A stretch of 64,000 bases of DNA, taken from assembly GCA_030390025.1 (NCBI GenBank), contig CM059432.1, positions 52,330,001 to 52,394,000 of the forward strand. The letters run 5' to 3'. The number at the start of each line of letters is the position of its first letter. Position 1 is the first letter of the stretch. A program made the translations under genes and the position numbers. Shown one piece after another: positions 2,990 through 53,219 of this stretch. Under the pieces are notes generated by a model. The model saw only the letters and a program-made list of their open reading frames with translations, made no database searches and was not told the DNA's origin. The stretch is from Squalus acanthias. Taxonomy: Eukaryota.

Positions 2990-3143
2990 ATGCGGAGATG
3001 TTGGACTGGGGTGGACAAAAATGAGAAGTCGCACAACACCAGGTTATAGTCCAACAGTTTTATTTGAAATTACGAGCTTTCAGAGCTCTGCTCCTTCTTC
3101 AGGTACAGTGAGGGAATATAAATCGATTACACCGTGGCAGTGG
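2990..3143 (-). mobile_element. Penelope family A pLTR fragment in an L2 3' end
   Basis: TSD TTCATCAGTG (2980-2989, 3144-3153); pLTR sequence shared with 53184-53311. Confidence 0.82.
3071..3105 (-). ncRNA. Minimal type I hammerhead motif, family A variant
   Basis: TAC-CTGAAGA-a-GGAGC-aga-GCTCT-GAAA-GCTC-GTA. Confidence 0.72.
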
Positions 3144-5410
3144 TTCATCAGTGGCAGAGCCTTTCGTCGCATCAATCCTATTCTCTGAAATTCCCTCCCT
3201 GTCTTTAAAACCCTCGTCAAAACAGTTTTCAACCAGGCTTTCAGTCATCTCTATCAGCTCTTTTACTATTGCTTGGAATCGGTTTTGCCTCTATGAGGCA
3301 CCCTAGGAATTTTACTATATTAAAGGCAGAGTCCTCACCACCTACACCATCTATGCTTATCATGGACAGTTGCCTATATCGGACAGATAATGCCAACAAT
3401 TTGTCAGTACCATAGGAGTTTAACATGCCGGCTATTTCGGGCAGTTCAATAAATTCTTCTGTATTTACCAATTTACACACCACTTTGTAACACCCCTCTA
3501 TCTGTGCAATGTTCACGTTTTATGCTCTGGTGATTTCTGTGACAAACTGTTAGTTAAACTGTAATATGGTCGCAAAATGAAGATATCGGGGATTAAAATA
3601 TCTAAAAGAATCACTAGAACATTGCACGTTACAAAAGCTGTACCATACTTGTAGATGGGAGCACATATCCTGGTTACTTGATCTAGCCCAATTATGATGC
3701 ATGCAGATGAATGAAAATACATTAGTGTTTTAAGTTTGCTTGGTTTAAACCGCACATGTTCTGCTGTTGGTCTCAAACATGAGGCACTGGTGCTCAATTT
3801 TTATATAATGAGGCAGAGATTGGTTTTACCGTCCACCGCTTATAGTGGGTAAATCGCGTTAACATTAACATGCACGCTATAAGCAGTGGGGACTGTGTAT
3901 AAATGCAAGTTTAAAAAAAATGCAAAATCATAAATGTTTCCTTTTATAAACAGGTTTATGATTTTGCTACACCTGGCACACAGGTGAAATTGTCTCGTAA
4001 TATTCTGTCTAATGACAAATGAAGGCAAACCATTCTTTGAATAATGGACAAAGTAAGTTGACAACTTTTCAGCTGTTGTATACATTTCCTCAGGCTATTC
4101 TATAATTTCGACATCTGCATACCCTGCCTTCACTGAGAGATTATCCCTGCCAATTCAAAACCAGACATACCCAGCATCCAGGCACTTCCCGCTAGAGGAG
4201 AATTGTTAATTAATGAGAATCAGCTTTAATGAAGTGCCGTTGAGAGGTGACAGTCAGAACCAGGCATAAACTAATAAGAACTGGCAGATTACACATTCTT
4301 ATTACTCAGCCAGGTTCAGCAGTAGGTTTCCCTTAAGGGGGAGTTGTGAAGAGTATCTTTTTCTTTCCAAAGTATTAAGTTAATAGCAAAACAAATTGTG
4401 TCTTTTTATAAACTTTTGTTAGAAGGTGGGGGTTGTAGAACTTTGAAAGTGGAAGCATTTTCGTCTGAATTTATGAACCATTTATATTATTTGCTAATGC
4501 ATGGGACACCCTTTAAAGTGCATGACATCACTCCTCATGGCTCAAGTTTTAACTTGCAGCCCCCACTCCTGCCTGTGATATGGGTTTCTGATGATGTGTT
4601 CATAGTACTTGAAGGAAAAAGGTCACCAGTGCACTTTCTTTTAGAAAAAATATAAATGTAGGAGGAGTGAGCATATGCCTTTCATTTCTGCAATTAAGAA
4701 AAGTGACTTTGGAAGGAAAATAATTAAACAGCAGACTGTGACTGCCACCAGACTACTTGAACATGATGAGGGGAGTGCTGTGGGGTGGCAGCATCAGAGC
4801 TAAACCTGATACTGTCCTCATATATAATCGCAAACAAGAACAGGATCCCGGGTTTGGGACCTCAGTGGCAAATGTTGCATCTCCACTGTCATCCTGGCAA
4901 GCAGAGATCAAACCTAGGCCCTTCCTGGTCGTATGATTCAGTACCATAACATGCAGTGCATTTTCCTGCTGTCCCATTGAGGGAGCTCTCTTTAACAAAG
5001 TTAAATCTGCAGCCTTTAGACCTAGATTATTTTATAGCTATTATTGTCTGGTACATTTCCTTCAATTAGTGTTTATGCTAATTTCCTGCTGCACGTCAAT
5101 GGAAAGGGAGGGGTGCAGACCAGAAATTACAATTGTCAAAAATACAGCAATCTAACAGATTAAAAAATTGCGGCAAAAATTAGGGTTGAAATTCTGATTG
5201 GCTAAACTCATATACAAACACTTAATTTGCTTCCACTACATTCCTGTGTGCATTACTTTTTACAAAGGTTTTTCTTTAAAAATAGGTTAACAATTGTATA
5301 AAAACAATAATAACATGCAGTTATATAGTGCCTTTAATGTAATATTTCCCACAGCACTTCACAGGAGTGTTATCAAACAAAAGTTGACACCAAACCACAT
5401 ACGGAGATAT

Positions 5411-5556
5411 CAGTACAGAAACAAAATACTGCGGATGCTGGAAATACACAGGTCTGGCAGCATCTATGGAGAGAGAAAGAGTTAACGTTTCAGGTCGATG
5501 ACCATTCACCAGAATTGGAAAAAGTTAGAGATGTAACAAGGTAAGAGAGACAAACT
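5411..5556 (-). mobile_element. Penelope family B short 3'-end copy (similar pieces at about 5945-6100, 16885-16975, 36930-37085, 38145-38195)
   Basis: Same tail as 13620-13713; TSD GAGATAT (5404-5410, 5557-5563). Confidence 0.7.
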
Positions 5557-5753
5557 GAGATATTAGGACAGGTTAACAGAGTTAAGCATCTGTAAGGGAA
5601 TTTAGCCAATCAGAATCTATACCCTATTATCTGCTTCACCTCAGGGACCTGGTTTTGAATCTGTTCAATTAAGCAGAGGCCTGTCCATTTTATAGAGAAA
5701 GCAGGCCAAAGGAACTGAGAGTTCGAATATCCTCACTGCTAGCTCAGCATGAA

Positions 5754-5845
5754 ATTGAGAGGTCGCACAACACCAGGTTATAGTCCAACAGTTTTATTTG
5801 AAATCACAAGCTTTCGGCGCTATCGCTCGCCCCTTCCTCAGGTGA
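5754..5845 (-). mobile_element. Penelope family A 92-nt insertion (hammerhead + tail only)
   Basis: TSD AGCATGAA (5746-5753, 5846-5853). Confidence 0.85.
5804..5845 (-). ncRNA. Minimal type I hammerhead motif, family A
   Basis: TCAC-CTGAGGA-..GGCG..CGCC-GAAA-GCTT-GTGA. Confidence 0.72.
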
Positions 5846-8800
5846 AGCATGAACCAGGGTTTGAACCTTCCAGTGGAAGCAGTTCTGCAAACACTCCACA
5901 AGTGTGGCTATTTGCTTTTCATTTACAGCACAGTACTGTAATATGAAACAAAAACAGAAAATGCTGGAAACACTCAGCTTTGACAACATGTCCACAATTG
6001 AAACATCAACTCCTCTGTTCTCTCCACAGATACTGCCTAACCTGCTGATCGTTTCCAGCATCTGCTTTTGTTTCAAATTTCACACATCTTCAGTTTCTTG
6101 CTTTTTGTTTATACTATCATGCAGTTACTTTCTTTGGGGCCACCAAGTGGCAGAAATAGGACTGTACAGCAAGTAAATTACATACTGGGATTAGACTAAT
6201 TTTACTGCACTGTAACAACTATTTTGTAATTTAAAAAATACTTTTACAGAGCGAGAAATTCACAAACTTAGTAACTTTTTCCCCCCTTCCTATCTGAAGG
6301 TGTTGTGACTCCTGTTGTAGAGTTTTATGGACACCTGATCCTTCCAGTCCCTGGCCATTCTTTGCGTGTGCCTACCCAGTGAATGTCAGTAGTCTATTTA
6401 ACCATGGAGGCATCAAAGCCCCTGATCCTGTCCTCAAACCTGGGACCTTATAGATTGTAGTCCCAGTACCATACAAGGCTGTAGATTTGAGCATCGACTC
6501 ACCTGAAAGATCTAAAGTGCATAAAAGAACATATGTTGAAAAAATAAGTGCATTCATGGTATAAACTTGAATTTCTCTGACTCCGATCGCCTAGCCTATT
6601 TAAAAGGCCAATATGCTGCTCTGATGGCTGAGGCTGTCACTGAGCCATACAAAGTAATTTTTAGGTTTAATCTCTAGTCTGTGCTGGGCCTCTTAGAATT
6701 TCATGTCACTTGAAAAAGTTAATGCCTCCATGGTGCAGGAAGATCTATACGCAAGAGATCATTCACAGTTTTCACAAAGATGCAAGAAAATGTATGTAAC
6801 CTGACAGATGTCTCATGTTCAAATATTCTAAATTTTAATAATGAGGCTCACCCATATTATGCTTTCAGAACAGGAACATTTTTCTGCTGAAAATTGTGCG
6901 CTTCAATAGCCTTCCTTAATTCTTCAAACTGGTGGAGCTTTTCAAAGATGATTCATGTCATGTTCTTCCACTAGTTTGTACAATTTTATGAAATCATGCA
7001 TTAACCCTCAAAGATGTAGACTTGAATTTTCAGACAGGCTTCAGAATTATTTTAGTGTAAGACCTTTTCATTGCCAAATCAAAAATATTTGTAGAAGGCA
7101 TTTGTTTAATGGAAAACCTGATGAATGTAAAATTTTCTCAATTAACTTGCCAGTAAGCTAGTCTTCGTACAATGCTATGCCTGAGTTTTCCATTTTCTCA
7201 CCTCAAGGGTGTCACAACCCTAAGGTCACGCCAGCTAAGAATAACAGGAAACTCTGATCTTTATACGGCTGAGAGATTATGCCTACACTAATTTATTACA
7301 CTATGGACTCAATTCTGTTAAATTGCAGTTGTAGCACAAAATTTATCCAAATTGTTTTATCTCTTTTTAGCCGATGGTGCATCTCTTCTGTACTCAAGGG
7401 GTAAGACAATCTTACAACAGGTATTACTCAATTAATTTTACCACATTGTACAGTACTCCATAGTACAATTTTCAAAAAAATTTCCTATTTCATACTCCTA
7501 AAAATGTACTTGGATTTTGGTGAGTGTTGCAAGTTAAATTTTCTCAGCACTAGCGTTGAGCACAGCCAGATTTTAAATAATTAAATTCAGAGTAAAGCTT
7601 ACACTGCAGTAAACTTTAAAAAAAAAAAATTGGGTTAACATTGCTTGAATGTCTTAAAGGTTACCTCGTGTACGCTGACAGGATATTTCTGTCACAGCTG
7701 GTAGTTTAAAGGACAACCTGAAAACAAGGGAGCAAATGTAACTCTTGTTCAACATGAAGAATCTCTATGCAATTACTGTGATTACACTTTGGCACCATTA
7801 TATTCTCTGGTTACTGCTTACTGGTCATTAGCTCAACAATCCTTTCTACCCTCTTCTCCCCACCCCGCCCAAATCTATTGATTTTCTTGCTACCCAACTT
7901 CTAAATTTTATGGAGATATAGCAGACCGCAGCTAGGGCAGCAGTGGAAAACAATGGACTTCAACTTCTACATTGAGGGGGTGTGTGTGTGTATAACAATA
8001 TATATATATATAAAAAATCAAGACAGTGTTCCCACTACTGAAAAAAGTGCATGTGTGGAGAAAGACTTACATTTATATAGTGCCTTTCACAATCAAGACA
8101 TGCTAAGGCGCTTTACAACCAATGAAGTACATTTAAAGCGTAGTTACTGCTGGAATGGAGGTCAGGAAGGCACCTGTGATTCACCAGGATCAAACAGCCT
8201 GCTGAGATTCACTTTCTAGGTTTTCAGAAGAATGGCCAGTTATAGGTATAGCAGCACTTGGCTTCCTCTTCGGTCCATACCAACAAGAGTAATCACCTTT
8301 AGGGGGAATTAATATTTTTAAAAACCGTGGAAGACAGCAAATTTTTCCATCAGTTAATTCTATTACTCAAAGTATTTGTAGGCCTGTTTTGTTTGGCAGA
8401 TTTATTTTGTGCAGTATTTAAATATTAGAAAACACTAACGTCACATTGCTCAATACGGCACTAGCAATTTGTTCCAATGCAATGTTAAAAGACCAGCCCC
8501 ATATTTTGTACATCAGTTACTATCACTGATCTTTTATTGTATCCTAACTCTACTATACCAGGGAACTCAAGCAAATTAGATCAATGTGGTGGATTTTAAC
8601 TTATAGATAATTTAAGTGAACTGTTAAGAAAACAATCTTCACTTAATATTGTCCACTGGGTTCCTCAATGCAAACACTGCATTGGGTGAAGATTCTTTTT
8701 CCACTTGATATTTTGCATTTGGTTTTCCTCAATTTGCATATCCTCACCCTGACCCTTCTAACCAGGCTCTGGCAGTTATCTCGGTGCCAGATGTAGTCAG

Positions 8801-11876: not shown

Positions 11877-12049
11877 TTAGTCATCTTTGTCCTTAGCACC
11901 ATGTTTCAGTATGCGGGTAAACTCAATGTAGTTGAAGTTGCTCTTGCTATCAATTGGTGCTTCTCGGAAAAGTTCATCCACCTCATCATCAGTAAACCGA
12001 TCCCCCATTGTTGTCAGCAGATCTCTCAGGTAGTCTTCCTGGATATAGC
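11877..12049 (-). CDS. MYL12: MYL12-like last coding exon ([19 protein letters not shown]...HGAKDKDD*)
   Basis: 173 nt, cttctttgcAG acceptor, TAA at 11879-11877; three exons total 519 nt = 172 aa + stop; IQEDYL and NYIEF residues are MYL12-type. A vs B paralog cannot be decided from this window. Confidence 0.97.
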
Positions 12050-12587
12050 CTGCAAAGAAGAAAACACAACTACAGCAAATACTTCCATTGAAACAAAATT
12101 AGTTATCCTTGTCAGAACAAAAAAAACTGTACAAGAATCACAAATGAATGGTTAGGAATAGAATAACTTCATGAATCTTGTCAAAGGTGTACAATAAAGT
12201 ATAATTAACCTCAGATGCAACATAAGGAGGTGCACAAGGGACCAGATGTTTTCCCACAAAAGGAGGGAGGGAGGGGGATAATCCAATAAAAGACTCAAAT
12301 TGCTCCTAGTGGCACATTATAAAGCAGCATTGCCAGAAGCTTGGGTGCAGGGTATGGCAGCAAGATTAAGAGTCAGCCATGACTCAGTTGGTAGCACCCT
12401 CGCTTCTGAAGGTTGTGGGTTCAAGTCCTACATCCAGAGACTTGAGCACAAAAATCTAGGCTGACACTCGTGCAGTACTGAGGGAGTGCTGCACTGTCTG
12501 AGGTGCTGCCTTTTGGATGAGACGTTAAACAAAGGCCCCCGTCTGCGTAAAAGGTCCCTTGGCACTATTTTGAAGAGCAAGGGAGTT

Positions 12588-12865
12588 ATAGAAACATAGA
12601 ATCTAGGAGCAGGAGTAGGCCATTCGGCCCGTCGAGCCTGCTCCACCATTCAATACTATCATGGCTGATCATTCAAATCCAGTACCCTGTCCCTGCTTTA
12701 ATCCCCACAGTACACATATCCCACCCTAGCCCCGTAACCCCACGTATTTAATTCCCCCTAACATATCCCATCCTATCCCCATAACCCCACATATTTAATC
12801 CCCTCCCCCTAACACTAAGGGTCAATTTATCATAGCCAAATCAACCTAACCCGCACATTTTTGGA
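12588..12865 (-). mobile_element. 5'-truncated HE1/V-SINE-like element with CR1-type tail
   Basis: V-domain-like GCGGGTTAGGTTGATT.GGC.ATGATAAATTG.CCCTTAGTGT plus CR1 tail. Confidence 0.72.
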
Positions 12866-13003: not shown

Positions 13004-13713
13004 GGCCCCGCTCCAGGGCCCCAAACACCCCTTCCAGGTGAAACAGCGATTTACTTGTACTTCTTGCAATCTAGTATACTGTATTCGCTGCTCACAATGT
13101 GGTCTCCTCTACATTGGGGAGACCAAACGCAGATTGGGTGACCACTTTGCGGAACACCTCCGTTCAGTCCGTAAGGGTGACCCCAAGCTTCCGGTCGCCT
13201 GTCATTTTAATTCACCGCTCCACGCCCACTCAGACCTCACCGTCCTCGGCCTCTTGCACTGTTCCACAGAAGCTCAGCGTAAGCTCGAGGAACAGCACCT
13301 CCTCTTCCGATTAGACACTTTACAGCCTTCTGGACCCAATATCGAGTTCAACAATTTCAGAACATAACCTCGGATATATAGATCCACACTTTTGGTTTGT
13401 GCCTTTTCCCTTTTTTTTCCTTCCCCACATGGCAGCTGTCTTTCATTCTGCTAGTGCATTTCACACTTCCAGAGCCATCTTTTGTCTCTTAACCTGTCCT
13501 ATTACCATCTCGTCTCGCCTAGAGTATCTGAAATGTCTCCTCTTCTCAGACCTCCCCTTTTGTTCTTTCATTCCCTCCCCCAGCCGCCAAACTTGCTTTT
13601 TCATCTGTTTCATTTCCTGCTTTCTCAGTTCTGACGAAGGGTCTTCGACCTGAAACGTTAACTCTTTCTCTCCACAGATGTTGCCTGGCCTGCTGAGTTT
13701 TCCAGCGCTTTAT
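13004..13713 (+). mobile_element. Penelope-like family B 3' fragment (GIY-YIG + 3' UTR)
   Basis: NLVYCIRCSQCGLLYIGETKRRL..HF..E..L..N GIY-YIG domain in the 12861-13367 ORF; TTCAAG direct repeat at the flanks; inserted in a SINE. Confidence 0.88.
13627..13663 (+). ncRNA. Minimal type I hammerhead motif, family B
   Basis: AGTT-CTGACGA-a-GGGTC-ttc-GACCT-GAAA-CGTT-AACT. Confidence 0.78.
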
Positions 13714-15114: not shown

Positions 15115-16096
<982 letters not shown>

Positions 16097-16856: not shown

Positions 16857-19079
16857 CTAGGAGAAAACAAACAGTTGAGATTATAAACAGTTCTGATGAC
16901 AGTTCATCGACCTGGATCTCTCTACAGCTGCTGTCTAACCGGCTGAGTGTTTCCAGCATTTTGTTTTTATTTTTGATAGACATGGACTTTTCCAAAGCTG
17001 AACTGGACCCAGATATTTTCTAGGTCAAATGTGCAGGTTTTCCTTACTTAAGTTTAACACACTTGATTCAGGGAATAAAATTGAGATATTCTAGTTTGTT
17101 AAAGGAGAAGGGGTATAAGAAATTCTCTGAACAAAGTTTCAGGTCAGGCCTCCATTCAGTGCCAAAGACTCAAGGGAATGTGACAGAAAAGGCACAAAGT
17201 ACAGGGAGGCACTTACACACCCCCATCCCCCAGCTTAGTTTATTATAGAACTGAGTAAATTACCCATCTTCTTGGCTGGGGATGACATGTGGCACAAGCA
17301 AGAAAAGTTTTTTTTAAAAAAAAGCTCAAATTAAAATTAGGTTTGAAGTTCCACAAATACACAATGTGGCCTACCCACAATTTTACTAGCACAGATGACC
17401 AGAGATTACAAACTAGAGTGCAAAAAGTACCACAGATCCAAAAACAAGACTGGAATGCAGGAATAAAATGTTGCGCAACCTTGGTTCTGTCCCATAGATT
17501 AGGATGTTATTATTCAGACTTAAATGATTATCTCAACACCAAGTCTCAATCATTTATATAGCACTTCACAACCAACTTGCCCAAAACAGCAAATATGACA
17601 GCACTTTATATAATTTGTTTCCCATGCATAACTGGTCTGAAGTTGGCAACAGCACTGCAAAATTAAGGGAGTGGGAGGGCACAATCACCAGCATCCATCA
17701 GAAGAGGTGGTTTCTACACATACTTCCAACACAATATAGGTAGCATTCTGGGAGCATTGTTGACTTTAACCACTAGTTGGCTGTCCCAACAGCTGCACAT
17801 CAGTGTCACACAAGCAGCTTTGCTATTACTGGCCTGTACAGACTTAGCAAGTGGGGAAGGCACCAGCCAGAGTCAGTTTTGAGGCATCTAAAAAAGTGGC
17901 TGCAGAAACCATCCCACAATAACTGCAAGAGCAGGAGTGAGCCAGTAATGCAGCTCTTCCTGCACACCCCACTTGTCATTAGAGGAAGCCCTACTACCTG
18001 ACTAGCTAGTGGCAAGAAAAATTAAATGCAGGCAGAATTCAAACCATCACATTTGGTTTTGCACAGGACCAGACTCCTATACTTAAGATTAATGGATACC
18101 TGGAAACGATTGCACCATTTTCTTTTCAATACCCAGGCTACGTAAAAGTGACTGCACTTAAAGTAATTCATTGGTTATGAAATATTTTGCGCCAGACATC
18201 CTGAGGACGTGATAAGACACTGTATAAATACAAGTTATGCCCTTGTGTAGACAGACCGCATCTAATATTTTCAAAAACCTAATTTGCAGGGGGGAAGGGG
18301 CAGGCAGGTTCACGCATTAAATTATTTTCTACAAGAGATTTTTCTTCATTGCTGCAAGTTTTCAGTAAACCTTTCAGAGAACTACCAGAGCTAGAAATTT
18401 TAGATTTCAAGAGCTTCCCATTTATTGCAGTTTGCCCATCAGGCAGGGTAAAAAAGTATTAACACTTAATACTAACATTTAAGTATAGTTAAAGCAAGAC
18501 TGTTGCTATCTAAAGAAATGTATGCTGTAGAATATATATCCTTACTCTAGAATTTGCTGGAATATAAAATTTTAGTTGGCCCTTACTGTTACTATTAAAG
18601 TTTCTATTTCATTGAAGTAATGACGGTGTTTTGGCTCCAATACTAGAAATTGTTCTTTACCAAAGGGAAATGGCAAAGCAATCAAATAAAAGGGCCACAC
18701 AGTTGAGGTGCTGTTTGGATTCCAGTTATAAATTATGCACATTGAGAATACCATAAGTAGAATTTACTCAAGTCAAATGAGTTTAAATAATTGTCATAGT
18801 ACTATACTAGATAAAAGTGACCGTCGGAAGGAAATAGGGCTGAACACGGATATCTAAAACTGTAGAAGTTTACAACAGCACCATTTGGCCATTGTCAGCT
18901 GGCCTGCTGCCAAAATTAATTCCACTGCTAGAGACCACCCCCCACATAGCTTCATACCTTCCTCTGCTTCAAATATTTATCCATTTTTCCCCTTTAAAAC
19001 ATGCAATCATTGTGGGATGGGCACTTCAATTAAGCTAGCAGTCTTTCTACAAGACTAAAAATAATATTTTTTGTGCAAA

Positions 19080-19495: not shown

Positions 19496-21357
19496 CAGAT
19501 GGTAGCAAATACAACGTGGGTCAGAAGGCAAGACGAGTTCAAGGACAATCTCAAAAGATTCTGATTTACTTCTTCCAGAAATACACAAGTCCCCATTAAA
19601 AAAAAAAATTTCCGCTCCCATAAAATAACACGAGGTACAGTTCGGTAGGCAACAGCAGCCATTGTACCTTTTTCAATTAACTTCTTTAAGCTATCAGCAA
19701 GTGTTCAGATTTGAATGTGATTTTTTTTTTTTAAAACTGAGTCTGATCCTTTAGCCTCCCAACATCTGCAGACTGCCTGAGACAATGGATAGTAATGTGG
19801 AAAACCAAATTGATTTTACCCCTTCTTAGCCAGGGAAGGAGACCAACTGTAGCATGGTCAATGCTGCCCAGTAGAGATCAGCTAATAGCATTGACTATGG
19901 AATGATACTAACAGGAAAGGCAAGATGCAAAGTCTAGTCTTAGAGTGGTTTGCAGAGATCTTCGAGACCAGTGCCCAAATATTAACCCCCCCCCCCCCAC
20001 CAGCGATAAGAATGAACTTGCATTATAATCGCACCTTTCACACCCTCAGGATGTCCAAGTGTTTTACAGCCAATGAAGTGTAGTCACTTATGTAGGAAAT
20101 GCAGCAGCAATTTGCATACACTGCCTCAGAATATGCAATGAAATAAATGACCAGATAATCTGTTTTAGTGATGTTAGTTGAGGGATAAACATTGGCCAGG
20201 ACACCAGGGAGAAATCTCCTACTCTTCTGCAAATAGTACCTTGGGATGTTTTACATCAACTTGAGGGAGCAGACAGCTTAGTTTAACATCTCACCCGTTA
20301 GACGCAAGGCACCTCCCAATAGTGAAGCACTCCCTCACTGCACTGAGCTGTCAGCTTAGACTATGTGCTCAAGTCTTGTGTGAACCCATGACCTTCAGGC
20401 AAGAGCACTACAACTGGGACAAGGCTGACTCCTAGTCTAAGTTTTACCTGGAAAAATCACAATAAGGAAGTTACCTAAAGCTATCAAAGCAACATTAAAA
20501 ACTGAGCTTACTTACCATAAGATTTGTACTAGTACTAAAAAAAAAATTAACTAATTCATAATCACATTGCAAACTATGATGTCTAGATCTTGTTTATATT
20601 GCATTGCACAGGTCTATTGATTATGTTCACACTGGCTTTTAAAAAAATGACTCATACAACAGGAACTGTTTCACAATATTGCAGACAAAAAAGATGGAAT
20701 GAATAAGGATTAAACAAAACTGCAAGGAAACAGGGGGCATATTGCATTTTTCAAATTCCTTGTGACTAATTTCTTCTGCTGGGTCCCAGACATGGCAAAA
20801 GTCAAAGGACCAAAAAAACAAGCAAATGATCAAGCCAGATGCCACTGTTTTATTAAAGACAAAGTATAATTTTCTCTTTGGGACTCCAAACTGATACAGG
20901 TTCAAGAATAAGCAGACAATTAACTTCATCTATTGCTTAGTTTGAGGAATAGGTGATAAGACACTGTTGCCAAAGTAGGCATCGGTCTTCTAAAAAGAAC
21001 TGGCAGGTATAGGATGACTAATAAGTTACAATACTATAAGAATGCAACATGTCACTGCATGTTAGGTTCATCAGTGGAAGGTATGTTAAAAGCTTTGACA
21101 ATACAAAATCATAAGATTAATCTCTGGGACAAGCATTTACAAGTAAACCTATTCCCAATGTCCTAAGGGCATAGAAGAGTCAACACATGTCACTACATAC
21201 CCATTAGTTTCCAGATCCTTCCTCCTAATCTAAATTGACACTTCAGTGCCATACTGAGGGAGTGCTGCATTGGAGTTGCATATTTGAATGAAAGGTTAAA
21301 CTGATCCCCCATCTGCCCTTTCAAGTGGATGAAAAGATTCCATGGCAGCTGAATCAA

Positions 21358-21453
21358 AATTGAGAGGTTGCACAACACCAGGTTATAGTCCAATAGTTTT
21401 ATTTGAAATCACAAGCTTTCGGAGCTTACTACTCCTTCGCCGGCATCTCCGCA
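21358..21453. mobile_element. Penelope family A micro-insertion (inverted pLTR piece + pLTR end) inside a Deu-type SINE
   Basis: TSD AGCTGAATCAA (21347-21357, 21454-21464). Confidence 0.85.
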
Positions 21454-22437: not shown

Positions 22438-23428
22438 AACCAACACCAGATTAACTGATCATTTCTCAATTCCTACTTCTGCTATTTTGCTGTGCACAAA
22501 TCAGCTGCTGTGTTTGCCTACAAAACCATCACCACACTTCAAAAAAGTAGTTTACTGGCTGTGGAAGGCACTATATGAAAGCAAGCTTGCTCCTTCTCTT
22601 CTCCCTTCAACACCAATGAAAAGCTTACTGGTCAATTTGTTACAATTAGGTCACTCCTTTACATTTTCAAATTATTTTTCCTCATTAAAACAGCAATTTT
22701 CACTGCAGTCACAATATTTCCATTCAAAAGCAGACCACAATCTGCTTCTAGGCCTCCATCCTCCCAACTGTGATCCAACTAGCTGCAACCCTTGTGTACA
22801 CAGGTGGGCTGTTTAAAATCTCCAAATGTTAACTTTATCTCAGTATTGGAGAAAAAGTGAATCCCAGCAGCAGAAGCTGAAATTGGCAGCCTAGGGAGCT
22901 GGGAAATTGAGCAGACATGCAAAACCTGAGCTATACGGAGAATGAAACAAACAGGGATTCTGGGTGATTGTAATAAGGATGGAGATAATGTACTGTTTGC
23001 TATATATGTTCATTCAAATGACCAATCTGTACATACAAGCCTGGCAAGTGTTAGAGAACTATTTAACTGTGAGGCCACCACAACCAAGCTCAAAGCTGCC
23101 TACATCCACTTCTCATTTTCAAGAGAGTTCACTGGATAGCAACATGGAGTAGTAACCTTGGTTACTGTTCTTCCCTAATTGAAGGGGAGTGATCAGGCAT
23201 AGTACCCTGCTTCAATTACCTTCCCTTTCATATTAGGCAGTTCACTGATGATTTTACAGTTCAGTTCCATTCACAACTCCTCCAATAACAAAGAAAGACT
23301 TGCATTTATATAGCGCCTTTCATGACCACCGGACGTCTCAAAGCGCTTTACAGCCAATGAATTATGTTGATTGAGGGATAAATATTGGCCAGGACACCAG
23401 GGATAACTCCCCTGCTCTTTGAAATAGT

Positions 23429-24034
23429 TGAGAGGTCGCACAACACCAGGTTATAGTCCAACAGTTTTATTTGAAATCACAAGCTTTCGGAACTATCGCT
23501 CCTTCCTCAGGTGAAGTAAATTGGATACAGAATCGTCAGAGCATATATAGATGGAAAAAAAAGCATGTGTACTTTACAATTGCAGACCAATAAATTAAAT
23601 CATCCTGACTATCTGCCGAGGTGTGATAAAGTTAATTAAGTCAGCCAGGAAGGTACCACATCAAAAGACATAGCAAGATACAACTGAGACAATGAGGTGA
23701 AGTCGCAGGGGTTCTAACGTGTCAAAAGCTGCCGTCTGTATGTAAAACGAAAAGCTTTAAAAAAAAAAAAATTTACTTTTTTACTGGGAAAATTTTTACT
23801 TTTTTACTGGGAATCACATCTGTGAACAAGCTAACGACGACTCGAGTCCGGATCACGTCATGTATCGTGACATAAACCCAAGATCCCGATTGAGACCGTC
23901 TTCATGAGTGCAGAACTTGGCTATCAGTTTCTGCTCGATGATTTTGCGTTGTCGTGTGTTTCTAAGGTTGCCTTGGAGAACGCTTACCCGCAGATCCGAG
24001 GCTGAATGTCCTTGACTGCTGAAGTGTTCCCCGA
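23429..24034 (-). mobile_element. Penelope family A 3' fragment inside a Deu-type SINE
   Basis: Near-identical to 38680-39279; TSD CTTTGAAATAGT (23417-23428, 24035-24046). Confidence 0.92.
23477..23514 (-). ncRNA. Minimal type I hammerhead motif, family A (sense to MYL12 intron 1)
   Basis: TCAC-CTGAGGA-a-GGAGC-gata-GTTCC-GAAA-GCTT-GTGA. Confidence 0.8.
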
Positions 24035-24249
24035 CTTTGAAATAGTGCCATGGGATCTTTACGTCCACCTGAGCGCAGACGGGGCCTCGGTTTAATGTCG
24101 CATCTGAAAGACGGCACCTCCGACAGTGCAGCACTCCACTGGAGTATCAGCCTAGCTTTATGTGCTCCAGTCTCTGGAGTGGAACTAGAACCCACAACCT
24201 TCTGACTCAGAGGCAAGTGTGCTACCTACTGAGCCACAGCTGACACTGC

Positions 24250-44399: not shown

Positions 44400-46190
44400 G
44401 CCAATCCTCTCTCTCCCCCTTCGATCCTCTCTCCCCTTCGATTCCCCCTCCCCCTTAGATCTCCTCTCTCCACGCCCCTGATCTCCTCTCTCTACTACCT
44501 TCAATCTCCTCTCTCCCCCCTGCGATCTCCTCTCTCTCTTTCCCCTTCAATCTCCACTCTCTCCCCCCTCCAATCTCCTCTCTCTATCTCCGATCTCCTT
44601 TCTCTCACCCCTCCGATCTCCTCTCTCCCACCCCCCTCCGATCTCCTCTCTCCCACCCCCCTCCGATCTCCCCTCTCTCTTCGATCTCCTCTCTCTCTTC
44701 CCCCTTCGATCTCCTCTCTCTCTCTCCGATCTCCTCTCTCTCTTCGATCCCCTTTCTCTCCCCTCCCGATCTCTTCTCTCTCTCTCCAAGCTCTCTCTCC
44801 CCACCTCCGATCTCTCTCTCTTTCCCCTTCGATCTCCTCTCTCCCCCCACTCCGATCTCCTCTCTCTCTCTGATCTCCTTTCTCCCCCCTCCGATCTTCT
44901 CTCTCTCTCCTCCTCCGATCTCCCTCTCTGTTCTCCTCTCTCTCTCCCCGATCCTCTCTCTCCCCCCTCTGATCTCCTCTCTCTCTTCCGCCTTCAATCT
45001 CCTCTCTCTCCCCCTCCGATCTCCTCTCTCTCTCTCTCCGATCTCTCTCTTGCGCCTTCAATCTCCTCTCTCCCCCCCTCTGATCTCCTCTCTCTCTCTT
45101 CATTCTCCTCTCTCTCTCTCCGATCTTCTCTCTCTCTCCGATATCCTCTCTCTCCCTCCCTTCGATCTCCTCTCTCTCTTCTCCCTTCGATCTCCTCTAT
45201 CTCTCTCCGATTTCCTCTCTCTCTGTTCTCCTCTCTCTCTCTCCGATCCTCTCTCTCTTCCCAGTCCAGTCCCCTCGCTCTCCCTCTTCGATCTCCTCTC
45301 TCTCCCCCCTTCGATCTCCTCTATCTCTCTCTCCGATCCTCCCTCTCTCCCCAGTCCAATCCCCTCGCTCTCTCTCTCCGATCTCCTCTCTCTCCCTCCC
45401 TCCGATCTCCTCTCTCCCCCTTCGATCTCCTCTTTCTCTCTCTCTGATCCTCTCTCTCTCCAGTCCAATCCCCTCGCTCTCCCACTCCGATTTCCTCTCT
45501 CTCCCTCCCTCCGATCTCCTCTCTCCCCCTTCGATCTCCTCTATCTCTCTCTCCGATCTCCTCTCTCTCCCCAGTGCAATCCCCTCGCTCTCTCTCTCCA
45601 ATCTCCTCTCTCTCCCTCAACTTCAATCTCCTCTCTCTCCCCCCTTCGATCTCCTCTCTCTCCCCCTTCAACCTCCTCTATCTCTCTCCGATCTCCTCTC
45701 TCCCCAGTCCAATCTCCTCTATCTCTCTCTCCGATCTCCTCCTGCCCTTCGATCTCCTCTCTCTCCCCCTTCGATCTCCTCTATCTCTCTCCGATCTCCT
45801 CTCTTCCCCCCCTTCGATCTCTATCTCTCTCTCCGATCTCCTCTCTTTCCCCAGTCCAATCCCCTCTCTCTCCCCCCTCTGATCTCCTCTATCTCTCTCC
45901 AATCTCCTCTCTCCTTCCCCCTTCGATCTCCTCTATCTCTCTCTCCGATCCCCTCTCTCTCCCCAGTCCAATCCCCTCTCTCTCCCTCCCTCCGATCTCC
46001 TCTCTCTCCCCCCTTCGATCTCCTCTATCTCTCTCTCGATCCCCTCTCTCTCCCCAGTCCAATCCCCTCACTCTCTCTCTCGCTCCAATCTCCTCCCCCC
46101 TTCGATCTCCTCTATCTCTCTCTCCAATCCCCTCTCTCATCCGCCCCCCCTCCGATCTCCTCTCTCCCCTGTCGATCCTCTCTCTTCCCC
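44400..46190. repeat. 1.8-kb polypyrimidine minisatellite (CGATCTCCTCTCTCTC..., with CCCAGTCCAATCCC variants)
   Basis: Directly visible; almost purely C/T on the + strand. Confidence 0.95.
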
Positions 46191-47979
46191 CCCACCACCA
46201 ATGGATCCCCTGATCTTCTCCGCATGGAGCTGAGGAAAGCCTGGCCCACGGAGCAGGCCACAACGGTTGGGTACTGTGCATGTGCGGCTCCGGAATACTG
46301 TGCGCATGTGCAGAAGGCCGCAAAGGTGTTCGTGCAAATAATCACAGTGGTCAGTTAAATGCTGGGTGGGGGGTGGGCCGAGGACAGTGGGAAGGGGAGT
46401 CGATTGTGGCCTTTAGGGGTACTGTCAAACTGGGAGAAGCATTCTTGCTCCTCCTGACTCCACCTGAATTAAAATATATATATACCTTTCCGGTGGTGAC
46501 CGCTGCGTAGGCCAGGAAAACCTGAGCGGAGAAGGCTTGACATTTGCTCCATTCAGGGCAACCCAATTTCTCAGAGAGGTCTAAAACAGGCCGTAGGCCC
46601 CTTATTAGCATATGCAAGAGGCCTAATGCCTGTTTTAAGTGGCTGATAATCAGGCTTTTCATGCTTCCTTGGGGTGCATAGCCCTGTGAAATTGTTAATT
46701 TTGGGGCCTCTTCTCCGGATGATGACCCATTTCTAGCCCTCAGTGTTACCCATGTTAAGGCCCATGGCAATACTCCATATAAATATTACCGTGGATTCGT
46801 GGCCTGTTTATTTAAATATGCGGTACCTTTAAATTTGCAGCGGCCGCGCATGGACAGTATCTTCAACGGGACAGCTTATGGACAGCCTTCGTGGTACCCT
46901 CACAGATTGCTGCGTGGCCGCGCACCCACGCAGCTTGCAGGGAACATTGATCCAAGGTATAATTGAACTGAGTGCTTGACGCTGGCATAGGTTAATCAAA
47001 GTGCAAAAATGTCCCATTAACAATGTCCCATCACGTTGATGAACACAAAAATACACCAAAAAGTAATTAAACAGAAATCAGAATTGATGAGAACTGTTTT
47101 TTAAATGACAAGTAATTATCATATCTCTACAAAGGGAACATATTTTGAAGAATTCAATGATGGTATTTTGCCCTTTTGATATTTAAAAAATGAACAGGAA
47201 CTAGGAATAATTTGCAGAACTTACAGCTTGCCACATTTTTAAAAGCTTCACACAAACCACTTCATTAGAAGATAATACAACTTCAATGAAAACAAAACTA
47301 TTCTGATGCAAATAGACTTCCAGGTTTAAAAAATGTCAGGCAGATCAAAATAATAACATCAAAGGACTCAGCTTTTTAAAGGTGCAAATCAGATCCAAGT
47401 TCAGGATTGATGCCACCAACCAACATCGAAAATGTGGCAATGTTCAATGATACTTTGCAATTCCTGACTGGAATGTTGTAAAAAAAACATTTATCACAAT
47501 GCGGCACTTACTGCTTTTCCCTCCATTCTTTTTCCAACATGAAATGAGTAATTCTATCTGTACATTATTGCACCTGCTACCTCAGTGAAGAATCCCATGT
47601 GTACCTTGTTAAATAGACTGTATAGAAGTTGTATTGATAACAGTGTAAATATGAAATTTATTTATTGCCATGAGCTTGCAAAGAAACTTCACAACTCATT
47701 GAAATGATTCAGTTTAACTTCTTCAGTGGCAATACCAGCACAGCTCACATCTGATGACATAAACTCAATGAGATTTTCCCCTTCCTATACCCATGGGTTT
47801 ATAATGAGCTCTGCTATGAGTCAGATTCTACTATTAAATATTGTGAACGCATGTTTTAATTATTGGTTCAAATCCACAAAAGATTCATACCAGGGCACTG
47901 AAAATCTGTGCGGTGGAAACTTCTACCCGTTTCTTACAAGGTAAATGTCAGAGGGCAGAGCTGGGGGCCAAGATTCATA

Positions 47980-48872
47980 GGGGGAAAAATTCAGTTGGTT
48001 GCGCCTCCCTTTAGCGCCTTAAGAGGGCGCTAATGGGGCGCAAAGCATCTAGCACCCAGGCGCGGCGATGTTTGCGCCACTCGTGAAATTAACTAGACAT
48101 TTTGCGGCTGCGCTAAACACTACCGCCACGATCTCCTGCGCCGGCAGATCGTGACGTCAGTCGAGTGCGCAACGCCCCGGTAGCGCCCCGGAGCAGATAT
48201 TGAGTGGCGCCCCCTGCCTTACCGCCTGCCGCTAGCAACGACAGGTTGAGGGGAGCGTTTTGCAGTCAGGAAGGGACTGGGGGAGTGCTATTTAAAGGCG
48301 ACCGCTTCCTGCCTTTTTTTGTTGGTGACATTTTTGAACCACGCATTCTGAGAGAGAGAAAGAGAGACTTCTGGAGAGATTCAACGCTGTGTGAAAGAGT
48401 TTTGGGTACTGAGCAGCACTTTGCAGGTTCATTTTGATTTGCCCTTCCTTGTATCGATTTAGAAGAGACTGTGGGGGTTGCACTCTGAGCTCTTTCCCTG
48501 GGCCTCTCCATTGTTCTTTCCAGCAGATTTGATGTACAGGTCTCTCCAGGCCGAGATTCAAGGCTGCAATAAGCAGGATGTGGATGGAAAGCAAGATCAA
48601 CCCTCCCCTTTAAGAACTGGCCGGCGCCATTGTGTCGGTGTTCCATTGCTGACTGTCATCACATGAGCTACGCCAGCGCTCTGAGTTAGTGCCTCGCTCC
48701 TCGGCCTTTGCGTCTTAAGACAGATGTGTAGCGCCTGATTTAGTGCTCCAATCACCTCCAGAGGCGATAAAAGTCAAGTTTGCAGTCGGAGGCGATAATT
48801 AGCGCCAGGCGCTAATCTTTGCGCCCGGCCGATAATTGCGCCCCAAACGGGGCGATACTGAATTTTTCCGCC
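47980..48872 (-). mobile_element. Non-autonomous Harbinger MITE, second copy
   Basis: Reverse-complement homologue of 41042-41894; TSD ATA (47977-47979, 48873-48875). Confidence 0.92.
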
Positions 48873-49545
48873 ATAGAATCATAGAATGATACAGCACAGA
48901 AGGTGGCTGTGTAGCCTATTGTGCCTGTGCCGGCTCCTTGAAAGAGCTATCAAATTAGTCACACTCCCCTGCTCTTTCTCCATAATCTTGCAAATTTTTC
49001 CACTTCAAGTATTTATCCAATTCCCTTTAAAAAGTTATTTTTGAATCTGCTTCCACCATCCTTTCAGGCAGTGCATTCCACACCATAACAACTTGCTGCG
49101 TAAAATTTTGTTTCCTCATGTTGTCTCTGGTTCTTTTGCCAATTACCTTAAATCTGTTTCACGTTGAAGACCTTTTGTCAAAAAGGTCATCGACCTGAAA
49201 CGTTAACTCTGTTTCTCTCTCCACAGATGCTGCCTGACCTGCTGAGTATTTTCAGCATTTTCTGTTTTTATTTCAGATTTCCAACATCCGCAGTATATTG
49301 GGCCAAAAATTCGGCCCTTCGCGGGTGAGTACACAATGCGTACTCACCCGTAAGGCGTCCCGAAGTGTCGGTTTCCTGCATGCACTGCGCATGCACGGGA
49401 AACCGGAACTTCCGGTCTGGTGAAGGGGGCGGTTCAGAGGTGAACCGCATGCGTGGGAGAGGCTGCGCGCACGCAGCAAACTTAGGTTTTTTTTCAGGTT
49501 TCTCCGGGAGGTTAAGTATTGAAGAACCTGCGCTTTTAAAAAGGA

Positions 49546-50505
49546 CGACGAACACCTCGCTAAGGCCATCCCCACGCCTCCACTACTTGCCTTCAAACAG
49601 CCGCCTAACCTCAGAAGTACCATCGTTCGCAGCAAATTACCCAGCTTTCAGGATAACAGCGACCACGACACCACACAACACTGCCACGGCAACCTCTGCA
49701 AGACATGCCAGATCATCAACACAGATACCATCATCACACGTGAGGACACTACCCACCAGGTACATGGTACATACTCATGTGACTCGGCCAACGTTGTCTA
49801 CCTCATACGTTGCAGGAAAGAATGCACCGCGGCATGGTACATCGGCGAGACCATGCAGACACTGAGACAACGTATGAACGGACACCGCGCAACAATCACC
49901 AGGCAGGAGTGTTCCCTCCCAGTCGGGAAACACTTCAGCAGTCAAGGACATTCAGCCTCGGATCTGCGGGTAAGCGTTCTCCAAGGCGGCCTTAGAAACA
50001 CACGACAACGCAAAATCATCGAGCAGAAACTGATAGCCAAGTTCCGCACTCATGAGGACGGCCTCAACCGGGATCTTGGGTTTATGTCACGATACATGAC
50101 GTGATCCAGACTCGAGTCGTCGTTGGCTTGTTCACAGATGTGATTCCCAGTAAAAAAGTAAAAATTTTAAAGTTTATCGTTTCCCATACCGACTGCGGCT
50201 TTTGACACATTGGACCCCCTGTGACTCCACCTCATTGTTTCAGTTGTATCTTGCTATGTCTTTGATGTGGTACCTTCCTGGCTGACCTGATTGCCTTTTG
50301 TCACACCTCGGCAGATAAACAGTCAGGATGATTTAAATGTAGTCGTCTGCCATTGTAAGTTACACATGCATTGTTCTCTATCTATATATGCTTTGTCGAT
50401 TCTGTATTTCTTTACTTCACCTGAGGAAGGGGCCACGTAAGCTCCGAAAGCTTGTGATTTCAAATAAAACTGTTGGACTATAACCTGGTGTTGTGCGACT
50501 TCTCA
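49546..50505 (+). mobile_element. Penelope family A 3' fragment (GIY-YIG end, 3' UTR, pLTR)
   Basis: Homologous to the 51701-52270 ORF end; 12-bp TSD TTTTAAAAAGGA (49534-49545, 50506-50517). Confidence 0.92.
50417..50457 (+). ncRNA. Minimal type I hammerhead motif, family A
   Basis: TCAC-CTGAGGA-stem II-GAAA-GCTT-GTGA. Confidence 0.8.
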
Positions 50506-51435
50506 TTTTAAAAAGGAGGCGCAGGAGCCGTTTTCAACAAGGTAAGTGGTTAATTAAGTATAATTTAAAAAAATTTTCAACAGGTTTATCTTTTTTAGAT
50601 ACTTTAAAGAAAGGTAAGTTTATTTTTAGCACTGTTAAAAAGTATTTTAATTTTTTCAAAAATTTAAATTTTTGTTTAAAGTGGTTAATTTATTTAACTA
50701 TAGTTATTTTATAAATGTGATGGTTTTTAAAAAAAATTATTTTAAGTTTAGCTGTTCTTTTGGGGCTGATTTCAATTCACAGATTTGACAGGTCTTCCTG
50801 TCAAATCTATGAATGAAAGATGGTCTGCTGCCATTGGCTCTCCATGGCCCACGTGATCCCAGGGGACGCATCGCGCTAACTGCGCCCCTGGGACACGCAA
50901 GCACTGCGCGCCGGCACTTGGAGCAGGCCCAGGAGCTGAAGTTCCCGTGGGCCCAAAACACAACGGCAGGTGCGGTAGGTAAGTGCGCACGCGATCCTTA
51001 CCCCCACGGCAAGCCGGAGAGGCGAATTTCAGGGCCATTGCTTTTGTACCTTAAATCTGTGTCTTCTAGTTACCGACCCTTCTGCCACTGGAAACAGTTT
51101 CTACTTATTCTATCAAAACCCTTCATGATTTTGTACACCTTTATCAAATCTCCCCATAGCCTTCTCTGTTCTAAGGAGAACAACCCCAGTTTCTCTAGTC
51201 TCTCCACGTAACTGAAGTCTTTCGTCTCTGGTACCTTTCTAATAGATCTCCTCTGCACCCTCTGACATCCTTCCTAAAGTGTGGTGCCCAGAATTAGACA
51301 CAATACTCCAGTTGGAGCCTAACCAGCGTTTTATAAAGGTTTCGCATAACTTCCTTGCTTGTGTACTCTATGCCTCTATTCATAAATGAGAAGTCGCACA
51401 ACACCAGGTTATAGTCCAACAGATTTATTTAATTT

Positions 51436-51471
51436 TACAAGCTTTCGGAGCTGTCGCTCCTTCCTCAGGTA
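51436..51471 (-). ncRNA. Minimal type I hammerhead motif, 3' pLTR
   Basis: TAC-CTGAGGA-a-GGAGC-gaca-GCTCC-GAAA-GCTT-GTA. Confidence 0.8.
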
Positions 51472-51700
51472 GGGTAGCTGTGAGAGAATCTCCCAGAATT
51501 CACAATATAAACACAGAAAAAATGTATTAAAATCTTTCCCTACATCAAAGACACACTAAGAGCACAGCCAAGACAATGAGATGTGTCCCAGGGGGTCCAA
51601 CGTGTCAAAACACCTGCTGGCTGCATATCCTCTCCATTTGTGTTGGTTCTTGTGTTAGTTTTTTTTAAAAAAACCTGGAAAGACCGGCCATGATGTCAAG

Positions 51701-53180
51701 TCACGTTCTGTATCGTGACATGAACCCGATATCGCGATTGAAGCCATCCTCATGAGTGCAGAACTTGGCTATCAGTTTCTGCTCTATGATTTTGCGCTGT
51801 CGTGTATCCCGAAGGCCGCCTTGGAGAACGCTTACCCGCAGATCCGAGGCTGAATGCCCCTGACTGCTGAAGTGTTCCCCGACTGGGAGGCAACCCTCCT
51901 GCCTGGCGATTGTTGCACGGTGTCCGTTCATACGTTGTCTCAGTGTCTGCATGGTCTCGCCGATGTACCATGCTCTGGGGCATCCTTTACTGCAACGTAT
52001 CAGGTAGACAACGTTGGCCGAGTCACATGAGTATGTACCATGTACCTGGTGGGTAGTGTCCTCACGTGTGATGATGGTATCTGTGTCCATGATCTGGCAT
52101 GTCTTGCAGAGGTTGCCGTGGCAGGGTTGTGTGGTGTCGTGGTTGCTGTTCTCCTGAAAGATGGGTAATCTGCTGCGAACGATGGTACTTTTGAGGTTAG
52201 GCGGCTGCTTGAAGGCGAGTAGTGGAGGCGTGGGGATGGCCTTAGCAAGGTGTTCGTCGTCATCGATGACATGTTGAAGGCTGCGAAGAACATGGCGTAG
52301 TTTTTCCACTCCGGGGAAGTACTGGACGACGTAGGGTACTCTGTTGGTTGTGTCCCGTGTTCGTCTTCTGAGGAGGTCTATGCGGTTTTTCGCTGTGGCC
52401 CGTCGGAACTGTCGATCGACGAGTTGAGCGTCATATCCCGTTCTTACGAGAGCGTCTTTCAGTGTCCGTAGGTGTCCATCGCGTTCCTCCTCGTCTGAGC
52501 AGATCCTGTGTATTCGCAGGGCTTGTCCATAGGGGATGGCTTCTTTAACGTGGTTAGGGTGGAAGCTGGAGAAGTGGAGCATCGTGAGGTTGTCCATGGG
52601 CTTGCGGTAGAGTGAAGTGCTGAGGCGTCCGTCTTTGATGGAGATTCGTGTGTCCAAGAATGAAACCGATTCTGAGGAGTAGTCCATGGTGAGTTTGATG
52701 GTGGGATGGAACCTGTTGATGCTATCGTGTAGTCCTTTCAGTGATCCTTCGCCGTGGGTCCAAAGGAAGAAGATGTCGTCGATGTATCTGGTGTACAGCG
52801 TTGGTTGGAGGTCCTGTGCAGCGAAGAAGTCTTGCTCGAACTTGTGCATGAAGATGTTGGCGTATTGGGGTGCGAATTTGGTCCCCATGGCTGTTCCGTG
52901 TGTTTGGGTAAAAAAATGGTTGTCGAAGGTGAAGACATTGTGGTCAAGGATGAAGCGGATGAGTTGTAGGATGGCGTCCGGAGATTGGCTGTTGTTGGTG
53001 TTGAGTACTGAGGCTGTCGCAGCGATGCCGTCATTGTGGGGGATATTGGTGTAGAGTGCCGATACGTCCATCGTGACGAGGAGTGTTCCTGGTTCAACTG
53101 GTCCATGGGTGCTGAGTTTCTGCAAGAAGTCTGTAGTGTCGCGACAGAAGCTGGGGGTTCCCTGTATGATGGGTTTCAGG
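51701..53180 (-). CDS. Penelope RT + GIY-YIG endonuclease, N-terminally truncated but uninterrupted
   Basis: RT motifs MDVSALYTNI, GTAMGTKFAP, RYIDD; CxxxxCxxC knuckle; VYLIRCSKGCPRAWYIG (GIY-YIG with Cys insert, Neptune-like). The first ~30 aa of the track ORF come from the inverted pLTR. Confidence 0.9.
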
Positions 53181-53183
53181 AAG

Positions 53184-53219
53184 TACCTGACGAAGGAGCG
53201 ACAGCTCCGAAAGCTTGTA
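53184..53219 (+). ncRNA. Minimal type I hammerhead motif, inverted 5' pLTR
   Basis: TAC-CTGACGA-a-GGAGC-gaca-GCTCC-GAAA-GCTT-GTA. Confidence 0.8.

What the first reader, a model, noticed from the sequence alone, without database searches (positions are those of the whole stretch)
3071..53219. Nine minimal hammerhead ribozyme motifs in two Penelope families, with covariation
Seen: stemI-CTGANGA-stemII-GAAA-NN-TH-stemI' at 3071, 5804, 23477, 39192, 50417, 51436, 53184 (family A) and 13627, 36950 (family B). Variation falls where a hammerhead tolerates it: N7 is G, C or A; stem I switches TCAC/GTGA to TAC/GTA to AGTT/AACT; stem II loops vary while pairing is kept, partly by G-U; the cleavage triplet is CUU, CUC or GUU. 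Stem III is reduced to a palindrome (AGCT or ACGT). Known: PLE pLTRs carry such minimal hammerheads, thought to cleave as dimers. Inference: two independent ribozyme-bearing lineages were recently active here.
Basis: partly seen in the sequence, partly recalled or inferred. Interest (0 to 1): 0.75.

Follow-up and report, generated by a model that had tools for sequence, protein, structure and literature searches.

The report
Shark Penelope retrotransposon hammerhead ribozyme motifs
These nine motifs are real copies of the tiny hammerhead self-cutting RNA motif already known from Penelope-like jumping genes, two families of which carry over 117,000 intact copies in this likely shark genome, and the shapes of the copies suggest that the element's RNA likely starts at the motif and that full-length copies are likely made from a cut-and-circularised RNA.

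Summary
Eight pass a strict hammerhead descriptor, against 0 in 60 shuffles. They lie in the pseudo-LTRs of two Neptune-type Penelope-like retrotransposon families (RT + GIY-YIG; 31% protein identity) and come from eight insertions. Genome-wide there are 73,556 intact A and 43,845 intact B motifs; both families have young full-length HHR-ORF-HHR copies. In 99 A copies the core is almost invariant, N7 and loop II vary freely, and two stem pairs change compensatorily; B shows wobble changes only. This is a known kind (Cervera and De la Pena 2014).

Side results: copies seldom begin at the cut site (about 1% in A). Their 5' ends pile up at the motif's 5' half, about 30 nt after a TATA-like box. 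In contrast, 15 of 16 complete elements run past that point, as a circular template would give. Cleavage itself was not tested, and no RNA reads covered the motifs. The scan noted these ideas before, in this genome and others.

The parts
3070..3106 (-). Family A hammerhead (N7=A, triplet CUC, G10.1-U11.1, 3-bp stem I) in a short copy about 2988-3135 that carries the 3' tail
5804..5845 (-). Family A hammerhead with a G.G mismatch in stem II; mini-copy 5752-5847 beginning 6 nt 5' of C3
12993..13711 (+). 5'-truncated family B element: GIY-YIG C-terminus (stop at 13367), pLTR and hammerhead; antisense in the last intron of a myosin regulatory light chain gene
13627..13663 (+). Family B hammerhead (GUU, ACGU palindrome), predicted cut 13659/13660
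23428..24041 (-). 5'-truncated family A element (EN end + pLTR) with hammerhead at 23477-23514
36946..37083 (+). Family B mini-copy with hammerhead at 36950-36986 and 3' tail
38610..39281 (+). 5'-truncated family A element with hammerhead at 39192-39233
49544..50509 (+). 5'-truncated family A element (linker Zn-finger + EN, stop at 50104) with hammerhead at 50417-50457
51381..53181 (-). Young 5'-truncated family A element (98% to full-length copies): RT core, CX5CxxC linker, GIY-YIG EN, stop at 51701, 3' pLTR with hammerhead at 51435-51472
53184..53311 (+). Inverted arm of the same insertion: hammerhead (53183-53220) plus the roughly 35-nt tail ending at the ORF start; differs from the other arm at N7
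51373..51386 (.). Left copy of the 14-nt target-site duplication (right copy 53312-53325), partly microhomologous to the element ends; the target is a LINE fragment
21354..21440 (-).
5435..5538 (-). Extra family B copy with a mutated core (A6 to G)
16888..16972 (+). Extra decayed family B copy
49182..49300 (+). Extra family B copy truncated inside the core

Best explanation
The motifs are minimal type-I hammerhead ribozyme sequences in the pseudo-LTRs of two young Neptune-type Penelope-like retrotransposon families, and they likely cut the element's RNA as a pair so that a unit-length RNA would be circularised and copied into full-length insertions. Shown: full-length elements carry two motifs 3,023-3,046 nt (A) or 3,193-3,209 nt (B) apart around one RT-EN ORF; the core is conserved while free positions vary; copies end at two sites about 35 nt apart downstream of the motif; 5' ends cluster at the motif's 5' half, not at the cut site. 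Inferred: transcription starts at the 5' edge of stem I. RT initiating internally on uncut capped RNA runs off that end and makes the roughly 90-130 nt mini-copies and fold-backs. In HHR-ORF-HHR transcripts the two motifs pair through the 4-nt palindrome (perhaps with help from the element's protein), both cut, the ends are ligated, and RT runs round the circle, which restores the promoter. Solo copies such as those in the window are likely inert. Identity as a PLE hammerhead motif is about 0.97 likely; the confidence given is for the whole mechanism.
For: Anatomy. Selection on the fold, in 99 motif-spanning A copies picked by a downstream anchor: C3, G5, A6, A9, A13, A14, A15.1 and U16.1 are 99/99; G8 and G12 98/99; U4 94/99; N7 is C43/G43/A12/U1; H17 is never G. 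Pair I.3 is C-G 65, U-A 31, U-G 2, mismatch 1; pair II.5 is C-G 92, U-A 4. On 44 distinct A haplotypes, 96% of cells pair and the covariation score is 0.189, with 0 of 500 shuffles as high. RNAcofold puts the palindrome and intermolecular stem I in the minimum-energy dimer for 3 of 6 copies folded, and the palindrome alone for 2 more (prediction). 5' ends 16-45 nt upstream of the cut are 5.6x (A, 90 events) and 11x (B, 87 events) denser per nt than at 46-235 nt. A TATA-like box lies about 30-33 nt before the modal A end and about 30 nt before the clustered B ends, in unrelated pLTRs. Of 16 complete elements with an upstream motif, 15 extend 130 nt or more beyond it and none stops at the predicted start; the two pLTRs differ by 0-5 nt in 12 of the 13 pairs measured, whereas pLTRs of different young copies average 90%. 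The circle model is proposed in PMC4209133 and internal RT initiation is shown in PMC11167929.
Against: No cleavage, RNA end or circle was observed. Only two stem pairs in A covary on both sides, and the tool's count of such pairs is not significant (64 of 500 shuffles); B shows none. The sequence just 3' of the motif is also highly conserved (97.7%), so conservation alone is not proof. U4C subfamilies spread in both families, and B lacks the usual G10.1-C11.1 pair in all 60 copies. For the anole element, core mutants did not affect insertion in vitro and no reads ended at the cut site (PMC11167929). Minimal HHRs cleave weakly in vitro (PMC4209133), and Naiad PLEs thrive without them (PMC8557442). 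The 16-45 nt bin was chosen after seeing the data, and most A junctions in it are fold-backs (33 of 42).
Confidence: 0.5

Rival explanations
1. The motif is a real, weakly active ribozyme, but it is not needed to make the template. Full-length copies come from uncut read-through or multimeric transcripts, or from RT jumping between transcripts of one locus. Cleavage only trims, decaps or regulates the RNA.
For: Copies almost never begin at the cut. Of 72,280 A copies with stem I', 70,571 keep the 3 nt upstream of the cut, against 71,179 for a 3-nt control extension: an excess loss of 0.8%. In the sample 1 of 127 A and 4 of 99 B ends lie within 2 nt of the cut. PMC11167929 found uncut RNA to be the main substrate in vitro. 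Tandem arrays exist (L062, L121).
Against: A re-ligated circle also gives copies that span the cut, so the test excludes only linear cut RNA. A transcript from the pLTR promoter should end at the predicted start, yet 0 of 16 complete elements stop there.
Confidence: 0.35
2. The fold is kept for a non-catalytic role, such as a protein-binding or promoter/5'-UTR structure or a splice-site context, and it does not cleave in vivo.
For: U4C lineages and the non-canonical 10.1-11.1 pair in B. The motif abuts an initiator-like or, in B, 3'-splice-site-like sequence; in D. virilis an intron ends at helix I (PMC4209133).
Against: The catalytic positions are kept while N7 is free and H17 avoids G, in two families with unrelated pLTRs. 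U4C is a known, weaker but viable natural variant (PMC3088659, passage). No spliced-type junction appeared among short copies.
Confidence: 0.12
3. The motifs are chance matches or merely copies of one repeat, with no structural selection.
For: All copies descend from a few master lineages, so counts are not independent.
Against: 0 hits in shuffles, 0 for reversed control patterns genome-wide, and compensatory changes in A.
Confidence: 0.02

Closest known systems
Minimal hammerheads (min-HHR) in pLTRs of metazoan Penelope-like elements (Cervera and De la Pena 2014, PMC4209133; parts 1-2 of 4 read, supplements not read)
   Same: Type I; no helix III beyond a palindromic 15.2-16.2; an extra nucleotide between 9 and 10.1; short helix I; located in both pLTRs; mostly solo or opposite-strand copies; many sequence families per genome.
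   Different: Copy number is at least 117,401 intact motifs here, against about 4,000 (coelacanth) and 9,000 (Xenopus) there, though the descriptors differ. Helix II is 5 bp. Family B has A-U or G-U instead of G10.1-C11.1. U4C sublineages occur. No cartilaginous fish is named in the parts read.
PAc, Poseidon element of Anolis carolinensis (Frangieh et al. 2024, PMC11167929; parts 1-2 of 4 read)
   Same: HHR at the pLTR-ORF junction, two RT start sites that give the optional tail, and no sign of ends at the cut site.
   Different: PAc is Poseidon clade and its ORF begins inside the HHR. Here the A start codon is 91 nt after the cut and the tail ends at it, and both families have the Neptune-type linker.
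Neptune clade EN+ PLEs (PMC8557442 and PMC3846280, passages read)
   Same: C-terminal GIY-YIG with two cysteines inside the motif, CX5CxxC linker, pLTRs, inverted 5'-truncated arm, 30-40 bp tail.
   Different: Clade not placed on a tree here, and Nematis shares the linker. No (TA)n targeting was tested.
Non-LTR retrozymes (bioRxiv 10.64898/2026.07.22.740005; part 1 of 5 and passages read)
   Same: Type I HHR, short non-coding PLE-derived copies; reported in one chondrichthyan.
   Different: The window copies are dispersed or inverted truncations, not head-to-tail tandem repeats (one search finds no HHR-bearing array).

Membership tests
Minimal type-I hammerhead | Core CUGANGA / GAAA / NUH | tested here: met
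   9 of 9 window copies; 94-99 of 99 A and 56-60 of 60 B copies per core position
Minimal type-I hammerhead | Helix I and helix II pairing supported by variation | tested here: met
   A: two compensatory pairs and several wobbles, 96% of cells paired. B: wobble changes only. The outer helix I pair is lost in 16 of 99 A copies.
Minimal type-I hammerhead | Palindromic 15.2-16.2 allowing a dimer | tested here: met
   G-C in 97 of 99 A, C-G in 53 of 60 B; predicted dimer pairing
Minimal type-I hammerhead | G10.1-C11.1 pair | tested here: inconclusive
   Met in A (96 of 99); not met in B (A-U 37, G-U 23 of 60)
Minimal type-I hammerhead | Self-cleavage after H17 | not testable with these tools
   The only raw RNA run is from a distant species and laid no reads on either family
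Rfam hammerhead families | Match to an Rfam covariance model | tested here: not met
   0 hits at E<=1 in the window
EN+ Penelope-like element | Single ORF with RT and C-terminal GIY-YIG EN | tested here: met
   A 892 aa, RVT_1 E=2e-8, EN seen by motif only; B RVT_1 E=3e-5 and GIY-YIG E=3e-4, both below the curated cut-off
EN+ Penelope-like element | pLTR-ORF-pLTR or partial tandem, inverted truncated arm, optional tail | tested here: met
Neptune clade | CX2-5CxxC linker between RT and EN | tested here: met
   Present in both proteins
Neptune clade | RT phylogeny with reference PLEs | not tested
   No reference PLE set was available
Non-LTR retrozyme | Short head-to-tail tandem units, each with an HHR | tested here: not met
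   No such array in the window; tandem HHRs seen are about 3 kb apart around an ORF

The most novel reading that the evidence does not exclude
More than 100,000 genomic copies act as a fossil record of the Penelope cycle. The transcript starts at the first bases of the hammerhead, mini-copies are run-off cDNAs from uncut capped RNA, and full-length pLTR-ORF-pLTR copies are made by rolling-circle reverse transcription of a ribozyme-cut, re-ligated circle. That would give the PLE hammerhead an in vivo job and explain how the promoter is regenerated.
Probability: 0.4. Interest if true: 0.65.

Novelty: new member of a known kind. Interest (0 to 1): 0.33.

Why it matters
The motif and its host class have been in print since 2014, so the finding as given is ordinary. 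Its value is as test material. What PLE hammerheads do in vivo is open (PMC8557442, PMC11167929). This genome offers two young families with intact ORFs, natural compensatory and U4C variants, and enough copies to map where cDNAs start and stop. The end mapping makes specific, cheap predictions: a capped 5' end at the stem I edge and a circular RNA of about 3.0 or 3.2 kb.

Tried and rejected
Rfam scan: no hit.

RNA evidence: no RNA holder listed. Raw RNA run X22 laid 0 reads on family A and only on the host exon at under 90% identity, so it is no test. Contig runs X1, X3 and X19 cannot show ends. The joints shown were subfamily or SINE artefacts, and I saw no intron inside either pLTR (118 more joints were not shown).

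First truncation mapping (all against all) was discarded because fold-back copies matched each other; it was redone against EN-attached pLTRs.

Pile-up of 5' ends at the cut site: not found in A. B has 4 of 99, too few to judge.

Spliced-template junctions: none among short copies.

Cap-derived extra G: 6 of 8 modal A ends follow a G, but all six are fold-back junctions where the G can be templated, so this is inconclusive.

Two different RNAs for the two arms of an inverted insertion: mostly rejected. In A, 20 of 35 compared pairs are identical against 2.6% of random pairs, and most others differ by one change; B gives 2 of 8. A few pairs (L216, L197, the window's) stay open.

Literature: searches for Penelope + shark + hammerhead, Penelope + elasmobranch and PLE + hammerhead + start site returned no paper whose listing describes these motifs in sharks or a start at the motif. 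Lunse et al. 2017 is not held (title only, from a reference list). It and the unread supplements of PMC4209133 may list shark examples.
Full report
Observation. All nine motifs are present. Four lie on the minus strand (3071, 5804, 23477, 51436). A strict, family-independent descriptor finds eight in the window and none in 60 dinucleotide shuffles; 5804 fails through a G.G mismatch in stem II. Rfam has no matching model. At least four more decayed or truncated copies are present. The window is repeat-rich vertebrate DNA from a 3.71-Gb genome. 'Shark-like' rests on my recall of such repeats and on earlier scan notes, not on a test.

Host elements. The frame at 51701-53305 (-) encodes an RT (Pfam RVT_1), a CX5CxxC linker and a GIY-YIG-type endonuclease. 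A protein search of the genome gave 65,645 candidates; the 87 scored were 98-100% identical, 84 of them without stops. Complete family A elements are HHR-ORF-HHR units with motifs 3,023-3,046 nt apart and an 892-aa ORF starting 91 nt after the cut. The endonuclease at 12993-13364 leads to family B, whose complete elements have motifs 3,193-3,209 nt apart. A and B proteins are 31% identical and their pLTRs do not align. The linker marks Neptune or Nematis (PMC8557442, passages); no tree was built. 51436 and 53184 are the head-to-head arms of one insertion with a 14-nt duplication, the standard PLE layout.

Abundance and age. Exact patterns count 73,556 intact A and 43,845 intact B motifs, with 0 for reversed controls. 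An independent sample of 73 evenly spread 10-kb stretches gave 26 strict motifs in 730 kb and 0 in three shuffles, about 130,000 by extrapolation. A ORFs average 98.9% identity over 29 loci, while their pLTRs average 90% and the motif 93%. B has nearest neighbours at 97-100% among loci picked by similarity to the window's copy, which itself is 93%.

Selection on the fold. To avoid circularity, copies were picked by an exact anchor 3' of the motif: 127 A and 99 B from the spread sample, the first 7 Mb of contig C1 and the window. The B anchor excludes one subfamily that carries U4C. 99 A and 60 B copies span the motif; 27 A and 36 B were truncated inside it, and 1 A and 3 B were dropped as unparsable. 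In A, eight core positions are 99/99, G8 and G12 are 98/99 and U4 is 94/99. N7 is free, H17 is U or C, and loop II runs from 3 to 9 nt. Pair I.3 shows C-G 65, U-A 31 and the U-G intermediate 2; pair II.5 shows C-G 92 and U-A 4; II.3 and II.4 wobble. The outer helix I pair is broken in 16. On 44 distinct haplotypes, 96% of cells pair and the covariation score beats all 500 shuffles, but the number of doubly changed pairs (2) does not (64 of 500), and related sequences inflate such scores. B has only wobble changes and has A-U or G-U at 10.1-11.1. U4C sublineages occur in both families, including long-ORF B elements; U4C is reported as weaker but viable in a viroid (PMC3088659, passage).

Where copies end. 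3' ends are bimodal, about 35 nt apart, in both families. This matches the two internal RT start sites and the tail shown for the anole element (PMC11167929). 5' ends rarely fall at the cut: 1 of 127 A and 4 of 99 B in the sample. Genome-wide, 2.4% of 72,280 A copies lose the three bases before the cut, against 1.5% for a control extension. Instead, 5' ends crowd 16-45 nt upstream of the cut. Counting one copy per insertion, the rate is 5.6 times (A) and 11 times (B) that further upstream; without fold-backs the excess stays strong in B (22 versus 12) and is weak in A (8 versus 11, p=0.04). The bins were chosen after seeing the data. The A mode is 7 nt 5' of C3, at the A of a pyrimidine-A initiator-like site (consensus recalled), and B ends cluster 2-4 nt 5' of C3. 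A TATA-like box lies about 30 nt further up in both families. That lead came from earlier scan notes, and I ran no shuffle control for it. In D. virilis the start lies 46 nt before a 75-nt intron (PMC2377424, passage) whose end abuts helix I (PMC4209133), so a start at the motif would differ from the studied case.

Long copies. A linear transcript starting at the motif would give full-length cDNAs that stop there. Of 16 complete elements with an upstream motif (12 A, two of them probably duplicates, and 4 B, chosen for long open frames), 15 extend 130 nt or more beyond it. One stops 22 nt 5' of C3 and none at the predicted start. Their two pLTRs differ by 0-5 nt in 12 of 13 measured pairs, and by 25 in 678 nt in one, by an ungapped count. 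This fits copying round a circle formed after double cleavage, as proposed in PMC4209133, but also long read-through transcripts or same-locus template jumps.

Mechanism. Shown: anatomy, conservation pattern and end distributions. Inferred: start site at stem I, run-off mini-copies from uncut RNA, dimer cleavage through the palindrome (predicted), ligation and rolling-circle copying. Not shown: any cleavage or RNA species (searches gave no test). The inverted arms lie on opposite strands and mostly share one template, so they cannot form a cis dimer, and the window's copies are likely inert.

Verdict. This is a new member of a known kind. The end-mapping results add modest mechanistic interest. 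I did not find them in print in the searches named, but the scan noted the same ideas before in this and other shark-type genomes.

Noticed in passing
window about 11880-16860 (-): Myosin regulatory light chain (MYL12-like, name recalled) gene with three coding exons near 16860-16680, 16076-15915 and 12070-11880. RNA reads of a distant species splice at the middle exon's ends. The 13627 motif is antisense in its last intron.
   Followed up: partly
window 57185-58507 (-) and 54780-56872 (+): DDE_Tnp_4 (PIF/Harbinger-type) transposase split over two frames (Pfam E=1e-39), with neighbouring ORFs that look like its Myb/SANT-type partner; related pieces at 41042-41894 and 47970-48872.
   Followed up: no
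L063, L064, L037, L038 (family B); L178, L201, L217 (family A): U4C core variant in separate sublineages of both families. In A it comes with a compensatory U-A pair at the end of stem II.
   Followed up: partly
window 51435-51472 and 53183-53220; L216; L197: The two arms of one inverted insertion carry different motif variants (N7 G versus C in the window), possibly from two different RNA templates.
   Followed up: partly
L001-L030: Among young family A copies the pLTR (90%) and motif (93%) vary far more than the ORF (98.9%) or the 45 nt after the motif (97.7%), which suggests fast turnover or swapping of the promoter region.
   Followed up: partly
L291, L293, L285, L295: Family A and B pieces lie directly adjacent at 4 of the 20 loci, hinting at insertion next to each other or cross-family template switching.
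   Followed up: no
window 44400-46200 and 43500-43970: Long CT-rich degenerate tandem array and a C-rich 26-33 nt array.
   Followed up: no
window 26327-26356: Run of 30 G.
   Followed up: no
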